A stretch of DNA of 64,000 nt, taken from an uncultured Clostridia bacterium. Lineage in GTDB: Bacteria; Bacillota; Clostridia; Lachnospirales; CAMVHY01. The translations under genes were made by a program, and so were the position numbers. Positions 13,084 to 18,692 of the stretch are shown piece after piece. Each line of letters opens with the position of its first letter. The stretch's first letter is position 1. The notes beneath the pieces are model-generated. The model saw nothing but the letters and a program-made list of their open reading frames with translations, searched no databases and was not told where the DNA came from. Where the stretch lies: NCBI GenBank assembly GCA_947073045.1, contig CAMTJU010000006.1, forward strand, positions 2,159 to 66,158, in the 5' to 3' direction.

Positions 13084-14241
13084 ATGAATATTGGAATATT
13101 TACGGATACATATTATCCGCACGTAAATGGTGTTGCAACTTCAATAAAGATGTTGGAGGAGCAATTAAGAAAACGTGGTCATAATGTCTATATTTTTACA
13201 ACATCAAATCCATTGGTTAAAGAGCCAAATTCAAATGTATTTAGATTACCGAGCATGCCGTTTGTTTTTTTACCGACTTACCGCATTGCTTTTTTTTATT
13301 CCCCAAAATTATTGTTTAAAATGAAAAAATTTAATCTTGATATTATACATACCCAAACTGAATTTTCAATCGGTATATTTGGAAAAATAGCCTCGGAATT
13401 TTTAAAAATTCCAGTGGTTCATACTTATCATACAATGTATGAAGATTATGTTCATTACATAGCAAAAGGACACTTAATTTCACCTAAGATGGCTCAAAGG
13501 TTTAGCAGAATTTTTTGCAACAGAGCTAAGATAGTAATTGCGCCTACACAAAAAACAAAAGATTCATTATTAAATTATGGAGTTAAAAGGCCAATAGAAA
13601 TTGTGCCGACGGGTATAACTCTTGAAAAATTTTTAAAAGATGCAGACAATAATCAAATAAGTGCAATAAAAAATGAATTGCACATAAACCAAAATGATTT
13701 TGTAATTTTATTTTTGGGACGCGTTGCTAAAGAAAAAAGTATTGACGTTTTAATTTCTCAAATGCCTGATATTTTGAATAAAATTTCCAATGCAAAATTG
13801 TTAATTGTCGGAGACGGTCCATATGTTAATGTATTAAAAAATTTAGCAGATGAACTTAAAGTTTCAAATTCAATAATTTTCAGTGGACAGGTTGCTTGGG
13901 AAAATATTAATTTGTATTATAAATTGGCGGATGTTTTTGTAACTGCTTCTACTTCTGAAACGCAGGGACTTACATATATTGAGGCAATGGCTTCAAAAAT
14001 TCCTGTTATTGCGAAAAATGATGGTAGTATAAAAAATTTGATTGAGGACAAAAAAAATGGCTATGTATTCGATAATCCAAATGAATTACCAAATATCATA
14101 GCCAAAATAAAAAATAATCCCGATGAAAAACTCAAAATTATTGATTGCGCTATTGATAAAATAAAAGATTTGTCAGCTGAAAAATTTGCTGAATCTGTTG
14201 AAAAAATTTATCTCTCACTTATAAAACACGACGTGCGGTAA
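13084..14241 (+). CDS. GT4-family glycosyltransferase (diacylglycerol glycosyltransferase-like)
   Basis: MNIGIFTDTYYPHVNGVATS ... ETQGLTYIEAMA (E-x7-E region); 385 aa. Confidence 0.8.
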   Translation: MNIGIFTDTYYPHVNGVATSIKMLEEQLRKRGHNVYIFTTSNPLVKEPNSNVFRLPSMPFVFLPTYRIAFFYSPKLLFKMKKFNLDIIHTQTEFSIGIFGKIASEFLKIPVVHTYHTMYEDYVHYIAKGHLISPKMAQRFSRIFCNRAKIVIAPTQKTKDSLLNYGVKRPIEIVPTGITLEKFLKDADNNQISAIKNELHINQNDFVILFLGRVAKEKSIDVLISQMPDILNKISNAKLLIVGDGPYVNVLKNLADELKVSNSIIFSGQVAWENINLYYKLADVFVTASTSETQGLTYIEAMASKIPVIAKNDGSIKNLIEDKKNGYVFDNPNELPNIIAKIKNNPDEKLKIIDCAIDKIKDLSAEKFAESVEKIYLSLIKHDVR

Positions 14242-14335
14242 TATAATTTTGCATATAATAACTTTCACTCAAATTGCTTATCATAACACCTTTATTGTTT
14301 GTACTTGCTGAATGAATAAATTGTCCGTTTTCAAA
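13913..14335. repeat. direct repeat copy A of the GT4 3' end / NlpC-P60 3' end junction
   Basis: Aligns by eye with 18457-18805 at high but imperfect identity; copy B has one 75-bp in-frame deletion. Confidence 0.8.
14219..14335 (-). pseudogene. relic of the 3' end of the NlpC/P60 gene (last ~38 codons)
   Basis: The minus strand encodes ..FENGQFIHSASTNNKGVMISNLSESYYMQNYITARRVL*, against GNGQFIHSASPNNKGVMISSLNESYYVQNYITARRVL* at the end of 18688-19773. No upstream part of the gene is present. Confidence 0.7.
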
Positions 14336-14534
14336 TAGAATTAAATATTCCGATACCAATCAGTACAAAAATTTATGCAGACGAAAGTGGTATTGTTATA
14401 AATGTAGGAATAATAAACAGTTATGTCTAAACAGTAATAATAGAGTACGGTGGCGGATTAAGTTATCTTTGTAAATAAAAAAAATGGCAGAAATCATCTG
14501 TCATTTTTTAATAATAATTTTGAGGAGAAATTTT

Positions 14535-15815
14535 ATGATAGACATAAAAAAATATTTTGCGGATTTCACTAATATACCAAAGTATCCGTCGCTTGACACT
14601 ATGAAATATTTTTGCGATAGATACGGAAATTTTGAAAAGCAAATGAAATTTTTACATATAGCAGGAACAAATGGAAAAGGAAGTTGCTGCGAAATCCTCA
14701 GTAAAATTTTAATCAATCAAGGCTATAAAGTTGGGAAATTTATGTCTCCGCATTTAATAAAATATAACGAACGCATAAGTATTAACAATGTTAACATTTC
14801 TGATTTGGATTTCTCAAATTTAATCGAAGAACTACAGCCCGAAATTATTTCTTATCCAAAAAAAGTAACTTTGTTCGAAATCGAAACAATTATTGCTTTG
14901 CTATATTTTTATCGAAATAATATTGATTTTATAATATTAGAAACAGGTTTGGGTGGATTATATGACAGCACAAATATTATTAGCCGGCCACTGATTTCGA
15001 TAATAACTTCTATATCATACGACCACACCGATATTTTAGGTAAAACGCTTAAAGAAATTGCACTACAAAAATCTGGCATAATTAAAAAAAATTCACATAC
15101 CGTATTTTTTTCACAATCAACAGAAATTAATAATGTTATTAAAAATAAATGTGCAATTGAAAATAATACTTTGCATTTGATAACTGAAAATCAAATCAAA
15201 AATTACAGTTTCGACGAAAATTTTCAATACTTTGATTATGATGATATGAAAGAAATTGCACTTAATCTAAAAGGTAAAAGCCAAATTAAAAATGTGTGTC
15301 TTTGTCTTGAGTGCATGAAAATATTAAATCAGCTCAGTTTCCAAATTTCTGAAATAAATATTAAAAGCGCTCTAGCAAATGTTATTCACAAAGGTCGAAT
15401 GGAAATTTTACATAAAAATCCGCTGATTATATTTGATGGCGCACATAATCCTGATGCAATTAAAAATTTACTTGCTACTATCGATATGTATTATAAAAAT
15501 TTTAAACGGCAATATGTAATTTCAATTTTGCGTCAAAAAGATTATGAGTCAATTATAAAAATTCTACTTTCAGATCAATATGCAACTTTTATATTAACTG
15601 ATGGTAATGATGAAAAAATTTATACACCTGCTAAAAAATTATTTTTTGTCGCGCAAAAATATAAATCCAAAAATCAAATTATATGTATAAAAAAATTAGA
15701 TGATGCCATTGATTTCATCACACAAAATAAAAACGATTCGATTAATTTCATAATTGGAAGTTTTTATGTTTACAACTCCGTGATAAATAAATTGCAAAAT
15801 CAAATTTATATATAA
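14535..15815 (+). CDS. folC: folylpolyglutamate synthase / dihydrofolate synthase
   Basis: HIAGTNGKGS P-loop, Mur-ligase layout. Start taken at ATG 14535 after GAGGAG; the track ORF opens at 14484. Confidence 0.85.
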   Translation: MIDIKKYFADFTNIPKYPSLDTMKYFCDRYGNFEKQMKFLHIAGTNGKGSCCEILSKILINQGYKVGKFMSPHLIKYNERISINNVNISDLDFSNLIEELQPEIISYPKKVTLFEIETIIALLYFYRNNIDFIILETGLGGLYDSTNIISRPLISIITSISYDHTDILGKTLKEIALQKSGIIKKNSHTVFFSQSTEINNVIKNKCAIENNTLHLITENQIKNYSFDENFQYFDYDDMKEIALNLKGKSQIKNVCLCLECMKILNQLSFQISEINIKSALANVIHKGRMEILHKNPLIIFDGAHNPDAIKNLLATIDMYYKNFKRQYVISILRQKDYESIIKILLSDQYATFILTDGNDEKIYTPAKKLFFVAQKYKSKNQIICIKKLDDAIDFITQNKNDSINFIIGSFYVYNSVINKLQNQIYI

Positions 15816-15894
15816 TATTCAATATTGTATTCAATATTTTTTTTAGTAAAATAATAATATAAGAGCTGTAGACCTCGAATGAGGAAGTGACATT

Positions 15895-18098
15895 ATGAGT
15901 GAGAGAATAGATTTAAGCAATTTAGCTCCAAAAACATTTGCTGGTTAAATTAAAAATTCTTTCTCGAGTTTGTGGTAAAGTTATTTGTATGGCTCTAGTA
16001 AATACTTGTCAATCAAGAACTGCAATTAATGTTGGTTAGTATAGAGACGCTCATAACATAAGTTATAAGACTTATTTCGTATATGTGACTATTATTTAGA
16101 AACTATTAAAAATAATTTATCTGAAGATGAGAGAAAAAATTATAAATGTATTGAGAGATATTATTGATATGTTTGCATGAAGTTATCAATCTTTATCCGT
16201 TGATCAAATTATTATGCCCGAACATAATGTTTATCGTTTTATTGAAGAAATTTCTCCCAAAAATAAAACCTTTGCTCTTAATTCAGTTGATAGATGAGAT
16301 AACGATAGTTATCAAGTAATAGTGGTTCCAAACGCAGATCTCGTATCACTATTCATTTATGGCACAGGTATTAATTTGAATTGGCGTAAACGAATAACCC
16401 ATTCTAATCATTTGCAAAGACCTATAACACTTATAACTTGGATTGATCATTCTAATATTACTGGCGATACAGAAGCAGATATAATAAATAATAATTTTAA
16501 AGCAAAATTTAATTCAAATACGAATGACGAAAAAATAATTTGGGATGGCAATTATTTATTGCAATATGCTATGCATGCAATTACTTTAATACATTTGATT
16601 CTCCATTAAATACGAGAGTGATAGTGCTTCAAAATTTTGCGAGAAAAATTAATATATAGAAAAAATGAAGATGAAAATGAAATTAAAATATTGATTACTA
16701 AAAAAAAATTTGAGAAAGATTCTAACAATATTTATTCTGATATTTTTAAAATCAACAATTACATTATACAACAAAAAAATCTTTTGCCGGATATTTTAGT
16801 AAACAAAAATAATTTTGATGAAAATATTGCAAAATGTTTGAATAACTTTAAATATATTTTAGAACATAATAATAACTTCTCAGATTTCATAAATGATTTA
16901 TTTAAAAAACCAGAAAATGAAATTAGAGAATTCATTGGATTTGATGAAATGTTTAGTGAAAATAATTTGCCGGAATTAATAACATTACTTGATACAAGTG
17001 TATTATCTATTGAAGGCTTAAACAATATAATCAACTTGTTTTTTATTAAATTAGAAAAAATTGAAAAAGAAAAAGGTTTATCAAAAGAAATAAAAGCGCC
17101 ACATAAAAAGATAGTAAAAACGACCAGATGAAAAAATAGAAATAGCGATAGAAACAGAGAAAAAGCATTAGAAGAAACATTAGAAAAATTAAAGAACGAA
17201 ACTCATAAAATAAAATTTTTTACGCAACAATTATCAAACATTACAAATTAGAAAGAATTTTCCTATGCTAATTTAATAAAAACATTTTATGTTAATGAAA
17301 GTGAACTCGCCAGCGATATAAGCGTAAACATCAAAATAGGAATTAAACCATTTTTTGAAAATAATATAGACTATGAAAAAATATTAATTATACTTTCATA
17401 TGCACTAAAAAATTTATATGAAGATTTTATAACTAATATTGATATGAAAGAACTAAAAAACTTTATCACGAAAAATCTAATAATCCTAATGACTTTGAAG
17501 ATTTCGCTAACATGATGGGTAAAAACATTTTTCTTTTTACAGAAGAAACAAATTAATGATTTTGAATTAAATGATGAAAATGGTAATACATATCTGTTTA
17601 TACTAAAAGTAATAGATAAAATTTCAGGCAAAAAATTTAAAAAATTAAATATTCCTGAGAATTTCAATGACGTTAATTTGGCAATAAAAATAGGCAATTC
17701 AAACGATAGAATAAAATTATTTTCAAAATTTCCTTTAAAAGAATTTTTGAAAATAAAAATACGTAATACCCCTTTAAATTCAATAGCTTACAAAAACAAT
17801 ATAAATTATTTTTTCTCCAAATCATTAGAATTAAAACCTTCAAATTTTAATGAAACAAAAGTTAATAAATGATTTTTTGGCTCTTAAACCTTAGAATTTT
17901 TTAGTATATATCCTTGAAAATAAACATTTGCTCATCGATAACGGAACATTTCCTATTTTATTTAATTTAATTAAAAATAAATTTTACGAGTTCAATGATG
18001 AGAAAAAAGAAAAATTTTCATATGAATTTTTGCCTAAATTATTAACTTTAGAAAACGATAATTTTAAAGCTGAAGATAGAAAAGATTTATTGGAATAA
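15895..18098 (+). pseudogene. decayed or recoded coding region (1-3 former genes, Asn/Lys/Ile-rich, no family recognised)
   Basis: ATG 15895 after GAGGAAGTGA. Frames stay coding-like for about 2.2 kb and are interrupted by TAG at 16037, 16097, 17249 and 17892, and by TGA at 16178, 16295, 17129, 17513 and 17870. There are apparent frameshifts near 15944 and 17868. Track ORFs 16322-16609, 16637-17131 and 17678-17872 are pieces of it. Confidence 0.5.
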
Positions 18099-18205
18099 AT
18101 TATATCTTGCAATTTTATTTATTTGCTTAAAGATTTTATGTTGAAAGGGCAATATTGAAGAAGAAAGTGAAAAAACAGATAATTTTATTTCATTATTTAA
18201 ATTTT

Positions 18206-18496
18206 TTAACGGAAAAAATGATAATAGAAAAATTTTAATAGATAATTTAGTATTCCGGATTTGATTGAAAAAATCATATCCGATTTTATTATGTCATGAT
18301 TATGGAATGTAATTGTCTTAAATTCATGGTATTGCAAAGCAATTGAATACCCAGTTGCATAGATAAATTTTTTTTCATATCCATTAATTTTTATAAAATT
18401 TCTTGTTGCCAAATCTATATCACAAAATTTTGTTCTAATTCTAAATTTATTCTTGATTTGTATTATAAATTGGGGATGTTTTTGTAACTGCGTCAA
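18206..18496 (-). CDS. hypothetical ORF, possibly a truncated gene fragment (tentatively GNAT-like C-terminus)
   Basis: The ORF's start codon lies inside repeat copy B, so its 5' part is not native. ATRNFIKINGYEKKF loosely resembles the GNAT C-terminal motif. Weak call. Confidence 0.25.
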   Translation of the reverse strand: MTQLQKHPQFIIQIKNKFRIRTKFCDIDLATRNFIKINGYEKKFIYATGYSIALQYHEFKTITFHNHDIIKSDMIFSIKSGILNYLLKFFYYHFFR

Positions 18497-18692
18497 CTTC
18501 CGAAACGCAGGGGCTTACATATATTGAGGCAATGGCTTCAAAAATTCCTGTTATTGCGAAAAATGATGGTAGTATAAAATATTTGATTGAGGACAAAAAA
18601 AATGGCTATGTATTCGATAATCCAAATGAATTACCAAATATCATAGCCAAAATAAAAAATAATACCGATGAAAAATTAAAAATTCACTTATA
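18457..18692 (+). pseudogene. relic of the GT4 glycosyltransferase 3' end
   Basis: Encodes ..DVFVTASTSETQGLTYIEAMASKIPVIAKNDGSIKYLIEDKKNGYVFDNPNELPNIIAKIKNNTDEKLKIHL*, matching residues of 13084-14241. It has no 5' part and a 75-bp deletion. Confidence 0.75.

What the first reader, a model, noticed from the sequence alone, without database searches (positions are those of the whole stretch)
15895..18098. About 700 codons of coding-like frame interrupted only by TGA and TAG, never by TAA, in a very AT-rich context
Seen in sequence: frame 2 is open from 15944 to 16609 except for TAG at 16037 and 16097 and TGA at 16178 and 16295. The same frame continues from 16637 to 17872 with TGA at 17129, TAG at 17249, TGA at 17513 and TGA at 17870. 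A +1 shift at the T-run near 17868-17880 continues to TAA at 18096 with one TAG at 17892. The only in-frame TAAs are at 16607, within a TAA..TGA TAG cluster that looks like a real gene end, and at the final stop at 18096. Out-of-frame sequence here hits TAA every few tens of nucleotides, so these frames are coding-derived. Inference, alternative (a): young pseudogenes hit by G-to-A and C-to-T transitions at TGG, CGA and CAG codons. In that case CAA-to-TAA should also be common, because CAA codons are plentiful here, yet none is seen. Alternative (b): DNA acquired from a donor or mobile element that reads TGA and/or TAG as sense (code 4/25-like or TAG-recoded phage-like). Contexts such as MFA-TGA-SYQ and VDR-TGA-DND would accept Trp. 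Alternative (c): regulated read-through. The host itself uses all three stops on conserved genes, so the signal is local.
Basis: partly seen in the sequence, partly recalled or inferred. Interest (0 to 1): 0.6.

Follow-up and report, generated by a model that had tools for sequence, protein, structure and literature searches.

The report
Decayed orphan gene, not stop-codon recoding
The stretch is the wreck of one large gene of unknown function that is still intact in a sister genus of gut Clostridia; it is broken by frameshifts, deletions and stop codons, so it is an ordinary dead gene and not evidence for an unusual genetic code.

Summary
The conclusion drawn from them does not hold.

- **What it is.** Window 15895-18100 is a single pseudogene. 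Its closest relative is an intact 1063-aa gene in a sister-genus MAG, G003 (MGBC163006, labelled uncultured Eubacteriales).
- **How it is broken.** A frameshift-aware alignment shows at least 7 frame changes and three internal deletions of about 20, 375 and 85 codons. One deletion junction lies at a microhomology. There is also a 39-codon insertion.
- **Stops in the ancestral frame.** There are five, or six counting the tail. They align to Cys, Lys, Lys (Gly in paralogs) and an invariant Leu, so no single residue fits.
- **Stops outside the ancestral frame.** Five of the listed stops (TAG16097, TAA16607/TGA16619/TAG16622, TGA17513) lie in out-of-frame stretches. TGA17870 lies in the ill-defined switch zone. 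The supposed gene end at 16607 is not a gene end.
- **Host code.** It is standard: TAA/TGA/TAG end 384/102/76 long ORFs, RF1 and RF2 are both present, and no suppressor tRNA was found.
- **Origin.** The pseudogene lies in a 4.2-kb island with an intact folC. The island appears to be imported from a G003-like lineage.
- **Reality of the lesions.** Three other assemblies carry the same lesions.
- **What remains.** A TAA deficit remains (0 of 5-6, nominal p about 0.001-0.01). I attribute it to chance and to how the region was selected.

The finding is ordinary.

The parts
15895..15939 (+). Retained start of the dead gene. ATG at 15895 is preceded by GAGGAAG. Fifteen codons, MSERIDLSNLAPKTF, match MSERINLNSLNPKTF of the intact G003 gene. 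This frame (mod 3 = 1) then hits TAA at 15946.
15940..15944 (+). First lesion: a 1-nt frame change together with loss of about 20 codons (G003 residues 16-35).
15941..16090 (+). Frame-2 piece matching G003 residues 36-87. It includes the family's invariant VNTCQSRTA motif. TAG 16037 aligns to Cys68, which is Asn or Ala in the paralogs.
16091..16132 (+). Stretch between two frameshifts. The ancestral frame here is mod 3 = 1 (YLETIKNNLSEDE matches YFESSKNNFSEDE).
16133..16597 (+). Frame-2 piece matching G003 residues 101-263, with 8 codons lost after residue 119. TGA 16178 aligns to Lys116. TGA 16295 aligns to Lys163, which is Gly in the paralogs.
16598..16639 (+). A 1-nt deletion followed by a frame-1 piece (SPLNTRVIVLQNF matches residues 265-277).
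16621..16639 (+). Junction of an internal deletion of about 375 codons (G003 residues about 278-652). It lies at an imperfect 18-nt microhomology that is present at both sites in the G003 gene.
16625..17065 (+). Frame-2 piece. CFKILREKLIYRKNE matches residues 654-669. About 85 codons are then lost (residues about 670-754). The rest matches residues 755-885 at about 70% identity.
17066..17182 (+). A 39-codon charged insertion that is absent from G003 and from both paralogs. It contains TGA 17129.
17183..17452 (+). Frame-2 piece matching residues 886-976. TAG 17249 aligns to Leu909 (TTG in G003), which is invariant in the family alignment.
17453..17542 (+). Stretch between a 1-nt deletion (CTA reduced to CT) and a 1-nt insertion. 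The ancestral frame is mod 3 = 1 (KKLYHEKSNNPNDFEDFANMMGKNIFLFT matches KKLYPDKSNDAEGFEDFTNMMDKNIYLFT). TGA 17513 is out of frame here.
17543..17869 (+). Frame-2 piece matching G003 residues 1007-1054. A tail then continues past the G003 stop. The tail is weakly similar to residues about 1180-1258 of the longer paralog (7.3 bits, against a shuffle maximum of 3.6).
17871..18098 (+). Coding-like stretch in frame mod 3 = 0, entered by a frame change near the T-run at 17873-17878. It holds TAG 17892 and ends at TAA 18096. Homology to the paralogs is not significant, so TAA 18096 may be the original terminator or an internal nonsense codon.
14329..14469 (+). Context: relic of an M23 peptidase gene. 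It carries an ancestral-frame TAA at 14428 aligned to Tyr. It is 64% identical to the G003 gene and 51% identical to this genome's own intact copy.
14484..15815 (+). Context: intact folC, the only copy in the genome, directly upstream of the dead gene. It is 87% identical to folC of G003 and G005.
18251..18451 (-). Context: relic of an M24 Xaa-Pro aminopeptidase gene. It is 67% identical to the G003 gene, which lies next to the intact 1063-aa gene there, and 51% identical to this genome's own copy.
13922..14334 (+). Context: left copy of the direct repeat that brackets the island. It spans the 3' end of the GT4 gene plus a relic of the 3' end of the NlpC/P60 gene.
18467..18803 (+). Context: right copy of the direct repeat, 95% and 89% identical to the left copy. 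It spans a relic of the GT4 3' end plus the true 3' end of NlpC/P60.

Best explanation
Window 15895-18100 is a single, well-decayed pseudogene. Its parent belongs to a very rare family of large proteins (1063 to about 3300 residues) of unknown function, so far seen only in a small clade of reduced-genome mouse-gut Clostridia.

Inferred history: the gene arrived as a passenger in a 4.2-kb segment (M23 relic, folC, this gene, M24 relic) that came from a lineage closer to the sister genus of G003 and G005. The segment was inserted at the GT4 / NlpC-P60 junction, and that junction was duplicated in the process. folC was kept because it is the genome's only copy. The passenger gene was under no selection and decayed by ordinary routes: 1-2-nt indels, deletions between short repeats, and base substitutions that made stop codons.

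The host reads TAA, TAG and TGA as stops. No reading of TGA or TAG as sense restores the gene.

Shown here: the homology, the frameshifts, the deletions, the residues aligned to the stops, the standard host code, and reproducibility in other assemblies. Inferred: the import from a sister lineage, the absence of selection, and chance as the cause of the TAA deficit.
For: An intact homolog exists. G003 has a 1063-aa ORF that starts MSERINLNSLNPKTF. tblastn to the window gives 55% identity over residues 36-263 with E = 1e-67, and the genome search gives 70-73% identity over the C-terminal half.

The frameshift-aware alignment places frame changes at about 15940, 16091, 16132, 16598, 17453 and 17542, and another near 17850-17897. 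At codon level these are 1-nt deletions and insertions.

One deletion junction sits at a microhomology.

The stops align to Cys68, Lys116, Lys163 (Gly in paralogs), an insertion, and the invariant Leu909.

The host code is standard. Among 562 ORFs of at least 250 aa, 384 end in TAA, 102 in TGA and 76 in TAG. RF1 (PET motif) and RF2 (SPF motif) are both present. None of the tRNA genes found by ARAGORN has a UCA or CUA anticodon.

Even with TAA as the only stop, no frame is open across the region.

Three other assemblies carry the identical sequence apart from one SNP at 16738.

The island relics are closer to G003 genes (64% and 67%) than to this genome's own intact copies (51% and 51%). folC is 87% identical, against TyrRS 80%, GT4 77%, FtsX 73%, M24 69%, M23 68% and NlpC/P60 64%.
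Against: The TAA deficit among ancestral-frame stops (0 of 5-6) is nominally unlikely under every mutation model I tried (p = 0.0007-0.01). I explain it only by chance and by after-the-fact selection of this region.

The closest intact homolog is only about 55-70% identical, so the ancestral codon at each stop cannot be reconstructed.

The frame path alternates only between two frames for most of the gene. This could hint at some past selection for compensation.

The import scenario rests on a few genes and on short relics.

Confidence: 0.9

Rival explanations
1. The DNA comes from a donor or mobile element that reads TGA and/or TAG as sense codons (code 4 or 25, or an amber-recoded phage). 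On this view the stops are sense codons of a once-functional or still-functional gene.
For: Six ancestral-frame stops are TGA or TAG and none is TAA. The island does look imported. TGA 16295 aligns to Gly in the two paralogs, which would fit code 25 at that one site.
Against: The intact homologs in the donor-like lineage have no in-frame TGA or TAG. The stops align to Cys, Lys, Lys/Gly and an invariant Leu, and none to Trp or Gln. At least 7 frame changes and three deletions break the gene under any code. No suppressor tRNA was found and both release factors are present. No relative was found in phage, plasmid or IMG/VR collections.
Confidence: 0.02
2. Leaky read-through. The gene survived for a time on natural read-through of the weak stops TGA and TAG, while TAA nonsense alleles were purged. 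Alternatively, pieces of it are still expressed at a low level, like the 'pseudo-pseudogenes' described in Salmonella (PMC9122581, seen only as a search hit and abstract).
For: The TAA deficit has a nominal p of 0.0007-0.01. The start codon and Shine-Dalgarno sequence are retained. Two pairs of frameshifts restore the main frame after 13 and 30 codons.
Against: Translation from the retained start ends after 17 codons at TAA 15946. About 480 of roughly 1060 or more codons are deleted. Read in the main frame, the stretches between the paired frameshifts themselves contain stops (TAG 16097, TGA 17513). No expression data could be obtained.
Confidence: 0.04
3. Assembly or sequencing artefact. On this view the frameshifts and stops are consensus errors in a metagenome-assembled genome, and the real gene is intact.
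For: The genome is a 36-contig draft. One frame change lies at a T6 run, 17873-17878.
Against: Contigs from three other assemblies (ERZ13641590, ERZ27269716, ERZ13641597) match the window over 1.0-6.5 kb with a single SNP and carry all the lesions they cover. The neighbouring genes are intact. Large deletions and substitutions are not typical consensus errors.
Confidence: 0.01

Closest known systems
Ordinary bacterial pseudogenes decaying by small indels, deletions and nonsense substitutions. Relevant papers are Kuo & Ochman 2010 (PMC2916853) and Danneels et al. 2018 (PMC6054270), both found and known to me only from title and abstract. That mutation is biased towards AT, and that deletions outnumber insertions, is my own background knowledge.
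   Same: An intact homolog exists elsewhere. Frameshifts of 1-2 nt are present. One deletion lies at a microhomology. There is a net loss of sequence. The stops align to assorted residues. The lesions are fixed in the sampled population.
   Different: The parent is an orphan family with no annotated domain. Among the few nonsense codons there is no TAA, although TAA should make up 60-70% of them.
Stop-codon reassignment: NCBI tables 4 and 25, and amber-recoded gut phages ('code 15').
   Same: Only the surface feature is shared: a long coding-like frame interrupted by TGA and TAG.
   Different: No consistent residue aligns to the stops. No suppressor tRNA was found. Both release factors are present. 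TGA and TAG are used as terminators. The frame is also broken by indels.
Intact family members: the G003 1063-aa gene (contig CAOVHW010000004.1 of MGBC163006), its paralog of about 3300 aa next to folC, and the 1978-aa gene of G005 (contig CANEHT010000012.1).
   Same: They share the N-terminus, the invariant VNTCQxRT, DHETQ and FIGKN motifs, and the C-terminal blocks. In all of them the gene or its paralog lies next to folC or the M24 peptidase gene.
   Different: The window copy has lost about 480 codons and its frame. It is 55-73% identical to the 1063-aa gene and only about 26-30% identical to the folC-adjacent paralogs.

Membership tests
Decayed bacterial pseudogene | An intact, full-length homolog exists in a related genome | tested here: met
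   G003 has a 1063-aa ORF, open under table 11. tblastn gives E = 1e-67.
Decayed bacterial pseudogene | The reading frame is disrupted by frameshifts relative to the homolog | tested here: met
   At least 7 frame changes. Codon-level alignment shows 1-nt deletions and insertions.
Decayed bacterial pseudogene | Premature stops at positions where homologs have ordinary, unrelated residues | tested here: met
   The stops align to Cys68, Lys116, Lys163 (Gly in paralogs) and the invariant Leu909.
Decayed bacterial pseudogene | Truncation or internal deletion of coding sequence | tested here: met
   About 20, 8, 375 and 85 codons are lost. One junction is at a microhomology.
Decayed bacterial pseudogene | The lesions are real, not assembly errors | tested here: met
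   Three other assemblies are identical apart from one SNP.
Decayed bacterial pseudogene | No functional product | not testable with these tools
Stop-codon reassignment (tables 4 and 25; amber-recoded phages) | In-frame stops align to one consistent amino acid in homologs | tested here: not met
   TGA aligns to Lys, Lys/Gly and an insertion. TAG aligns to Cys and Leu.
Stop-codon reassignment (tables 4 and 25; amber-recoded phages) | A tRNA with anticodon UCA or CUA is present | tested here: not met
   ARAGORN found no such tRNA in the 1.17-Mb draft. Caveat: the draft lacks several ordinary tRNAs as well.
Stop-codon reassignment (tables 4 and 25; amber-recoded phages) | The matching release factor is lost, and the codon is not used as a terminator | tested here: not met
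   RF1 and RF2 are both present. TGA ends 102 and TAG ends 76 of 562 long ORFs.
Stop-codon reassignment (tables 4 and 25; amber-recoded phages) | The gene becomes one continuous frame under the alternative code | tested here: not met
   With TAA as the only stop, the longest open stretches are 57, 425 and 87 codons in three different frames.
Programmed read-through or expressed 'pseudo-pseudogene' | A continuous frame from a start codon through the stop(s) | tested here: not met
   The frame of the start codon ends at TAA 15946. The homology changes frame repeatedly.
Programmed read-through or expressed 'pseudo-pseudogene' | A detectable protein or ribosome footprint across the stop | not testable with these tools

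The most novel reading that the evidence does not exclude
The absence of TAA among the ancestral-frame stops is not chance. After import, the gene stayed weakly useful for a time and tolerated only the leaky stops TGA and TAG, read through at a low level, while tight TAA alleles were purged. Frameshifts and deletions killed it later. If so, the types of stop codon found in young bacterial pseudogenes would record a phase of read-through-dependent partial function.
Probability: 0.04. Interest if true: 0.4.

Novelty: already known. Interest (0 to 1): 0.12.

Why it matters
This matters mainly as a negative result.

It also gives a practical lesson for the scan. In AT-rich genomes, a pseudogene frame delimited by eye at TAA codons will tend to appear to be interrupted only by TGA and TAG. 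A frameshift-aware alignment to a homolog is needed before stops are counted.

Two smaller points came out of the work:
- An extremely rare orphan family of giant proteins is confined to a few reduced-genome gut Clostridia.
- This genome's only folC appears to sit in a segment imported from a sister genus.

Tried and rejected
**Searches on the parent family that found nothing useful**
- Pfam found nothing on the three translated pieces.
- Pfam and NCBIfam gave only sub-threshold noise on the intact homologs.
- A profile search of PDB sequences gave no hit.
- The search for homologous proteins with the G003 protein returned only itself.
- hmmsearch of 1.84 billion representative proteins gave 5 hits. 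Two of them are gene calls on this same pseudogene. One is a distant 1138-aa relative.

**Structure**
- AlphaFold2 on the N-terminal 460 residues, with a 3-sequence alignment, gave mean pLDDT 36.7. The model is unusable, so I ran no fold search.

**Possible link to the neighbouring OTU-like genes**
- I tested whether the parent family is related to the window's OTU-like genes at 23632-26787 and 28043-29581. BLASTP found no similarity.

**Wider searches for relatives**
- A genome-contig scan with the read-through translation found nothing. The second scan, with the family alignment, recovered only G003 and G005.
- Viral contigs, metagenome contigs, phage and plasmid searches, and an exact DNA pattern search, all found nothing.

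**The tail**
- Homology of the tail 17901-18116 to the long paralog looked plausible by tblastn. It was not significant with a bias-corrected HMM. I therefore do not claim that TAA 18096 is an internal nonsense codon.

**The deletion junction**
- My first reading aligned 'LH*IRE**CFKILREKL' to residues 646-662. DNA alignment corrected this: only CFKILREKL onward belongs there.

**Synteny**
- GT4 and NlpC/P60 are not adjacent in the relatives, so synteny gave no simple empty site.

Full report
**1. Observation**

I read 15700-18300 and translated all three forward frames.
- In the frame with position mod 3 = 2, the stops are TAG 16037 and 16097, TGA 16178 and 16295, TAA 16607, TGA 16619, TAG 16622, TGA 17129, TAG 17249, TGA 17513 and TGA 17870.
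- The next frame then runs to TAA 18096 with TAG 17892.
- Between 15944 and 17872 this frame has 11 stops in 642 codons. The other two frames have 75 and 90 stops, of which 49 and 46 are TAA. The frame is plainly coding-derived.

**2. What it is**

Pfam finds nothing on the translated pieces. A six-frame search of related genomes found an intact relative in G003, a genome of the same family but a different genus.
- The G003 ORF is 1063 aa and begins MSERINLNSLNPKTF. The window has ATG at 15895, preceded by GAGGAAG and followed by MSERIDLSNLAPKTF.
- tblastn of the G003 protein on the window gives 55% identity over residues 36-263 with E = 1e-67, plus a long C-terminal match.
- The genome search reports 57%, 70% and 54% identity for three blocks.
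- G003 is the mouse-gut MAG MGBC163006, labelled uncultured Eubacteriales. G005 is another uncultured Clostridia MAG.

**3. Anatomy of the wreck**

I wrote a protein-to-DNA aligner that allows frameshifts and checked one junction at DNA level. The ancestral reading path is as follows.

| Window position | Frame (mod 3) | Matches in G003 / event |
|---|---|---|
| 15895-15939 | 1 | Residues 1-15 |
| about 15940 | change | 1-nt shift and loss of about 20 codons |
| to 16090 | 2 | Residues 36-87 |
| 16093-16131 | 1 | YLETIKNNLSEDE matches YFESSKNNFSEDE |
| 16133-16597 | 2 | Residues 101-263, with 8 codons lost |
| about 16598 | change | 1-nt deletion |
| 16600-16639 | 1 | SPLNTRVIVLQNF matches residues 265-277 |
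| 16621-16639 | junction | Deletion of about 375 codons |
| from 16625 | 2 | CFKILREKLIYRKNE matches residues 654-669 |
| after about 16669 | deletion | About 85 codons lost |
| to 17452 | 2 | Residues 755-976, with a 39-codon insertion at 17066-17182 |
| 17453 | change | 1-nt deletion (CTA reduced to CT) |
| 17455-17541 | 1 | Residues 978-1006 |
| near 17542-17548 | change | 1-nt insertion |
| to about 17690 | 2 | Residues 1007-1054 |

The junction of the 375-codon deletion lies in an 18-nt stretch that resembles both deletion end-points in the G003 gene. The DNA alignment scores are 61 and 58, against a maximum of 39 in 200 shuffles.

Beyond the G003 stop, the frame stays open to 17869. That tail resembles residues about 1180-1258 of a much longer G003 paralog, but only weakly (7.3 bits, against a shuffle maximum of 3.6). 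A frame change near the T6 run at 17873-17878 then leads into a 75-codon coding-like stretch that ends at TAA 18096. I could not show homology for that last stretch. TAA 18096 may therefore be the original terminator.

**4. The stops, re-sorted**

On the ancestral path:
- TAG 16037 aligns to Cys68 (TGT in G003; Asn or Ala in the paralogs).
- TGA 16178 aligns to Lys116.
- TGA 16295 aligns to Lys163 (Gly in the paralogs).
- TGA 17129 lies inside the window-specific insertion.
- TAG 17249 aligns to Leu909 (TTG in G003), which is invariant in the family alignment.
- TAG 17892 is probably on the path as well.

- TAG 16097
- TAA 16607, TGA 16619 and TAG 16622
- TGA 17513

TGA 17870 lies in the zone where the frame switches (about 17850-17897), and its placement is uncertain.

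The 'two genes' are one gene.

**5. Host code**
- The genome is 1.17 Mb in 36 contigs, 30% G+C, and scored as 100% complete.
- Of 562 stop-to-stop ORFs of at least 250 aa, 384 end in TAA, 102 in TGA and 76 in TAG.
- Two class-I release-factor genes are present. One has the RF1 tripeptide PET and the other has the RF2 tripeptide SPF. Assigning the tripeptides to RF1 and RF2 is my own background knowledge.
- ARAGORN finds no tRNA with anticodon UCA or CUA.
- Even with TAA as the only stop, the region does not become one frame. The longest TAA-to-TAA stretches are 57, 425 and 87 codons in three different frames.

Recoding and read-through cannot rescue the gene.

**6. Are the lesions real?**

Gene calls on two fragments of this pseudogene are present in the public protein collection. 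Looking one of them up returned contigs from three other assemblies. They match the window over 6495, 1375 and 1010 bases with a single SNP at 16738 and carry every lesion they cover. Some of these assemblies may come from the same study, so they may not be fully independent.

**7. The TAA question**

- I used the sense codons on the ancestral path, or those of the G003 gene.
- I tried flat, transition-biased and AT-biased mutation spectra. I also tried a spectrum estimated from 18 differences in the island's own repeat relics.
- Under all of these, TAA should make up 60-70% of one-step nonsense mutations.
- This gives P(0 TAA of 5) = 0.002-0.010 and P(0 of 6) = 0.0007-0.004.
- Adding the neighbouring M23 relic, which does carry an ancestral-frame TAA at 14428 aligned to Tyr, gives 1 of 7 and p = 0.004-0.019.

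The deficit is nominally real and I found no mechanism for it. I do not think it outweighs the rest of the evidence, for three reasons:
- The sample is 5-6 events.
- The region was flagged because of this very pattern, in a scan of a very large number of windows. One search lists 24 similar notes, several of which turned out to be ordinary nonsense mutations.

**8. Why a dead gene sits here**

The segment 14242-18466 is bracketed by direct repeats. 13922-14139 matches 18467-18684 at 95%, and 14202-14334 matches 18671-18803 at 89%.

Contents of the segment:

| Element | Position | Identity to G003 / G005 gene | Identity to this genome's own intact copy |
|---|---|---|---|
| M23-peptidase relic | 14329-14469 | 64% | 51% (copy on contig 11) |
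| folC, intact | 14484-15815 | 87% | this is the only copy |
| the pseudogene | 15895-18100 | 55-73% (1063-aa gene) | none in this genome |
| M24-aminopeptidase relic | 18251-18451, minus strand | 67% | 51% (copy on contig 13) |

For comparison, other orthologs between this genome and G003 or G005 are 92% (FtsE), 86%, 80% (TyrRS), 77% (GT4), 74%, 73% (FtsX), 69% (M24), 68% (M23) and 64% (NlpC/P60).

In G003 the gene order is ftsX, M23, folC, a giant paralog, M24 on the opposite strand, then the 1063-aa gene. The island's M23, folC, gene, reversed-M24 order echoes this.

I infer that the segment came from a lineage closer to G003 and G005 than this genome is. folC was retained, and the large passenger gene decayed. 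The donor-like lineage uses the standard code. No relative of the gene was found in phage, plasmid or IMG/VR collections.

**9. The parent family**
- Three intact members (1063 aa, 1978 aa and about 3300 aa) align over about 1100 residues at 35-38% identity. Invariant motifs include VNTCQxRT, DHETQ and FIGKN.
- There is no Pfam, NCBIfam or PDB match.
- A profile search of 1.84 billion representative proteins found five proteins. Two of them are this pseudogene's own fragments and one is a distant 1138-aa relative.
- AlphaFold2 gave an unusable model with mean pLDDT 36.7.
- The family is not detectably related to the window's OTU-like genes.

Its function remains unknown. That does not affect the verdict, because the window copy is dead.

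**10. Verdict**

This is an ordinary, well-decayed pseudogene inside a probably imported segment. What remains of it is a small-sample oddity.

I therefore could not test read-level variation or expression, or make a wider ortholog comparison.

Noticed in passing
window 13922-18803: A 4.2-kb island (M23 relic, the genome's only folC, the pseudogene, M24 relic) is bracketed by direct repeats of the GT4 / NlpC-P60 junction (95% and 89% identical). The relics are closer to the sister genus's genes (64% and 67%) than to this genome's own intact copies (51% and 51%). folC is 87% identical to the sister genus, against 64-80% for most other orthologs. This suggests import of the only folC from a sister lineage.
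   Followed up: partly
window 16621-16639: The junction of the roughly 375-codon internal deletion lies in an imperfect 18-nt repeat that is present at both end-points in the intact G003 gene. This is the classic signature of deletion between short direct repeats.
   Followed up: yes
L011 6741-9932 (-), L012 3957-9893 (-), L021 (- strand, from 8111 downwards): An orphan family of giant proteins (1063, 1978 and about 3300 aa) has invariant VNTCQxRT, DHETQ and FIGKN motifs. It gave only 5 hits among 1.84 billion representative proteins and has no known domain. AlphaFold2 failed on it. In G003 and G005 a member always follows folC.
   Followed up: partly
L021, + strand ORF of 1433 aa starting near 14703; window 25618-26274: A G003 ORF of 1433 aa is a distant homolog (23% identity, E = 5e-9) of the window's large OTU-like gene, and also of a gene on contig 9 of this genome. 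That rare family is therefore present in the sister genus too.
   Followed up: no
G000 contig C22:2868-3431 (-), locus L023: The RF2 (SPF motif) open frame of 344 aa shows no Met near its beginning. This is probably the usual prfB +1 programmed frameshift. I did not check it.
   Followed up: no
whole genome G000: ARAGORN finds only about 36 tRNA genes. None was found for Ala, His or Ile, and no Lys-UUU, although the genome is scored as 100% complete. The missing ones probably lie in unassembled rRNA/tRNA clusters.
   Followed up: no
window 17066-17182: A 39-codon, strongly charged insertion (KEKGLSKEIKAPHKKIVKTTR*KNRNSDRNREKALEETL) is absent from all three intact family members. Its origin is unknown.
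   Followed up: no
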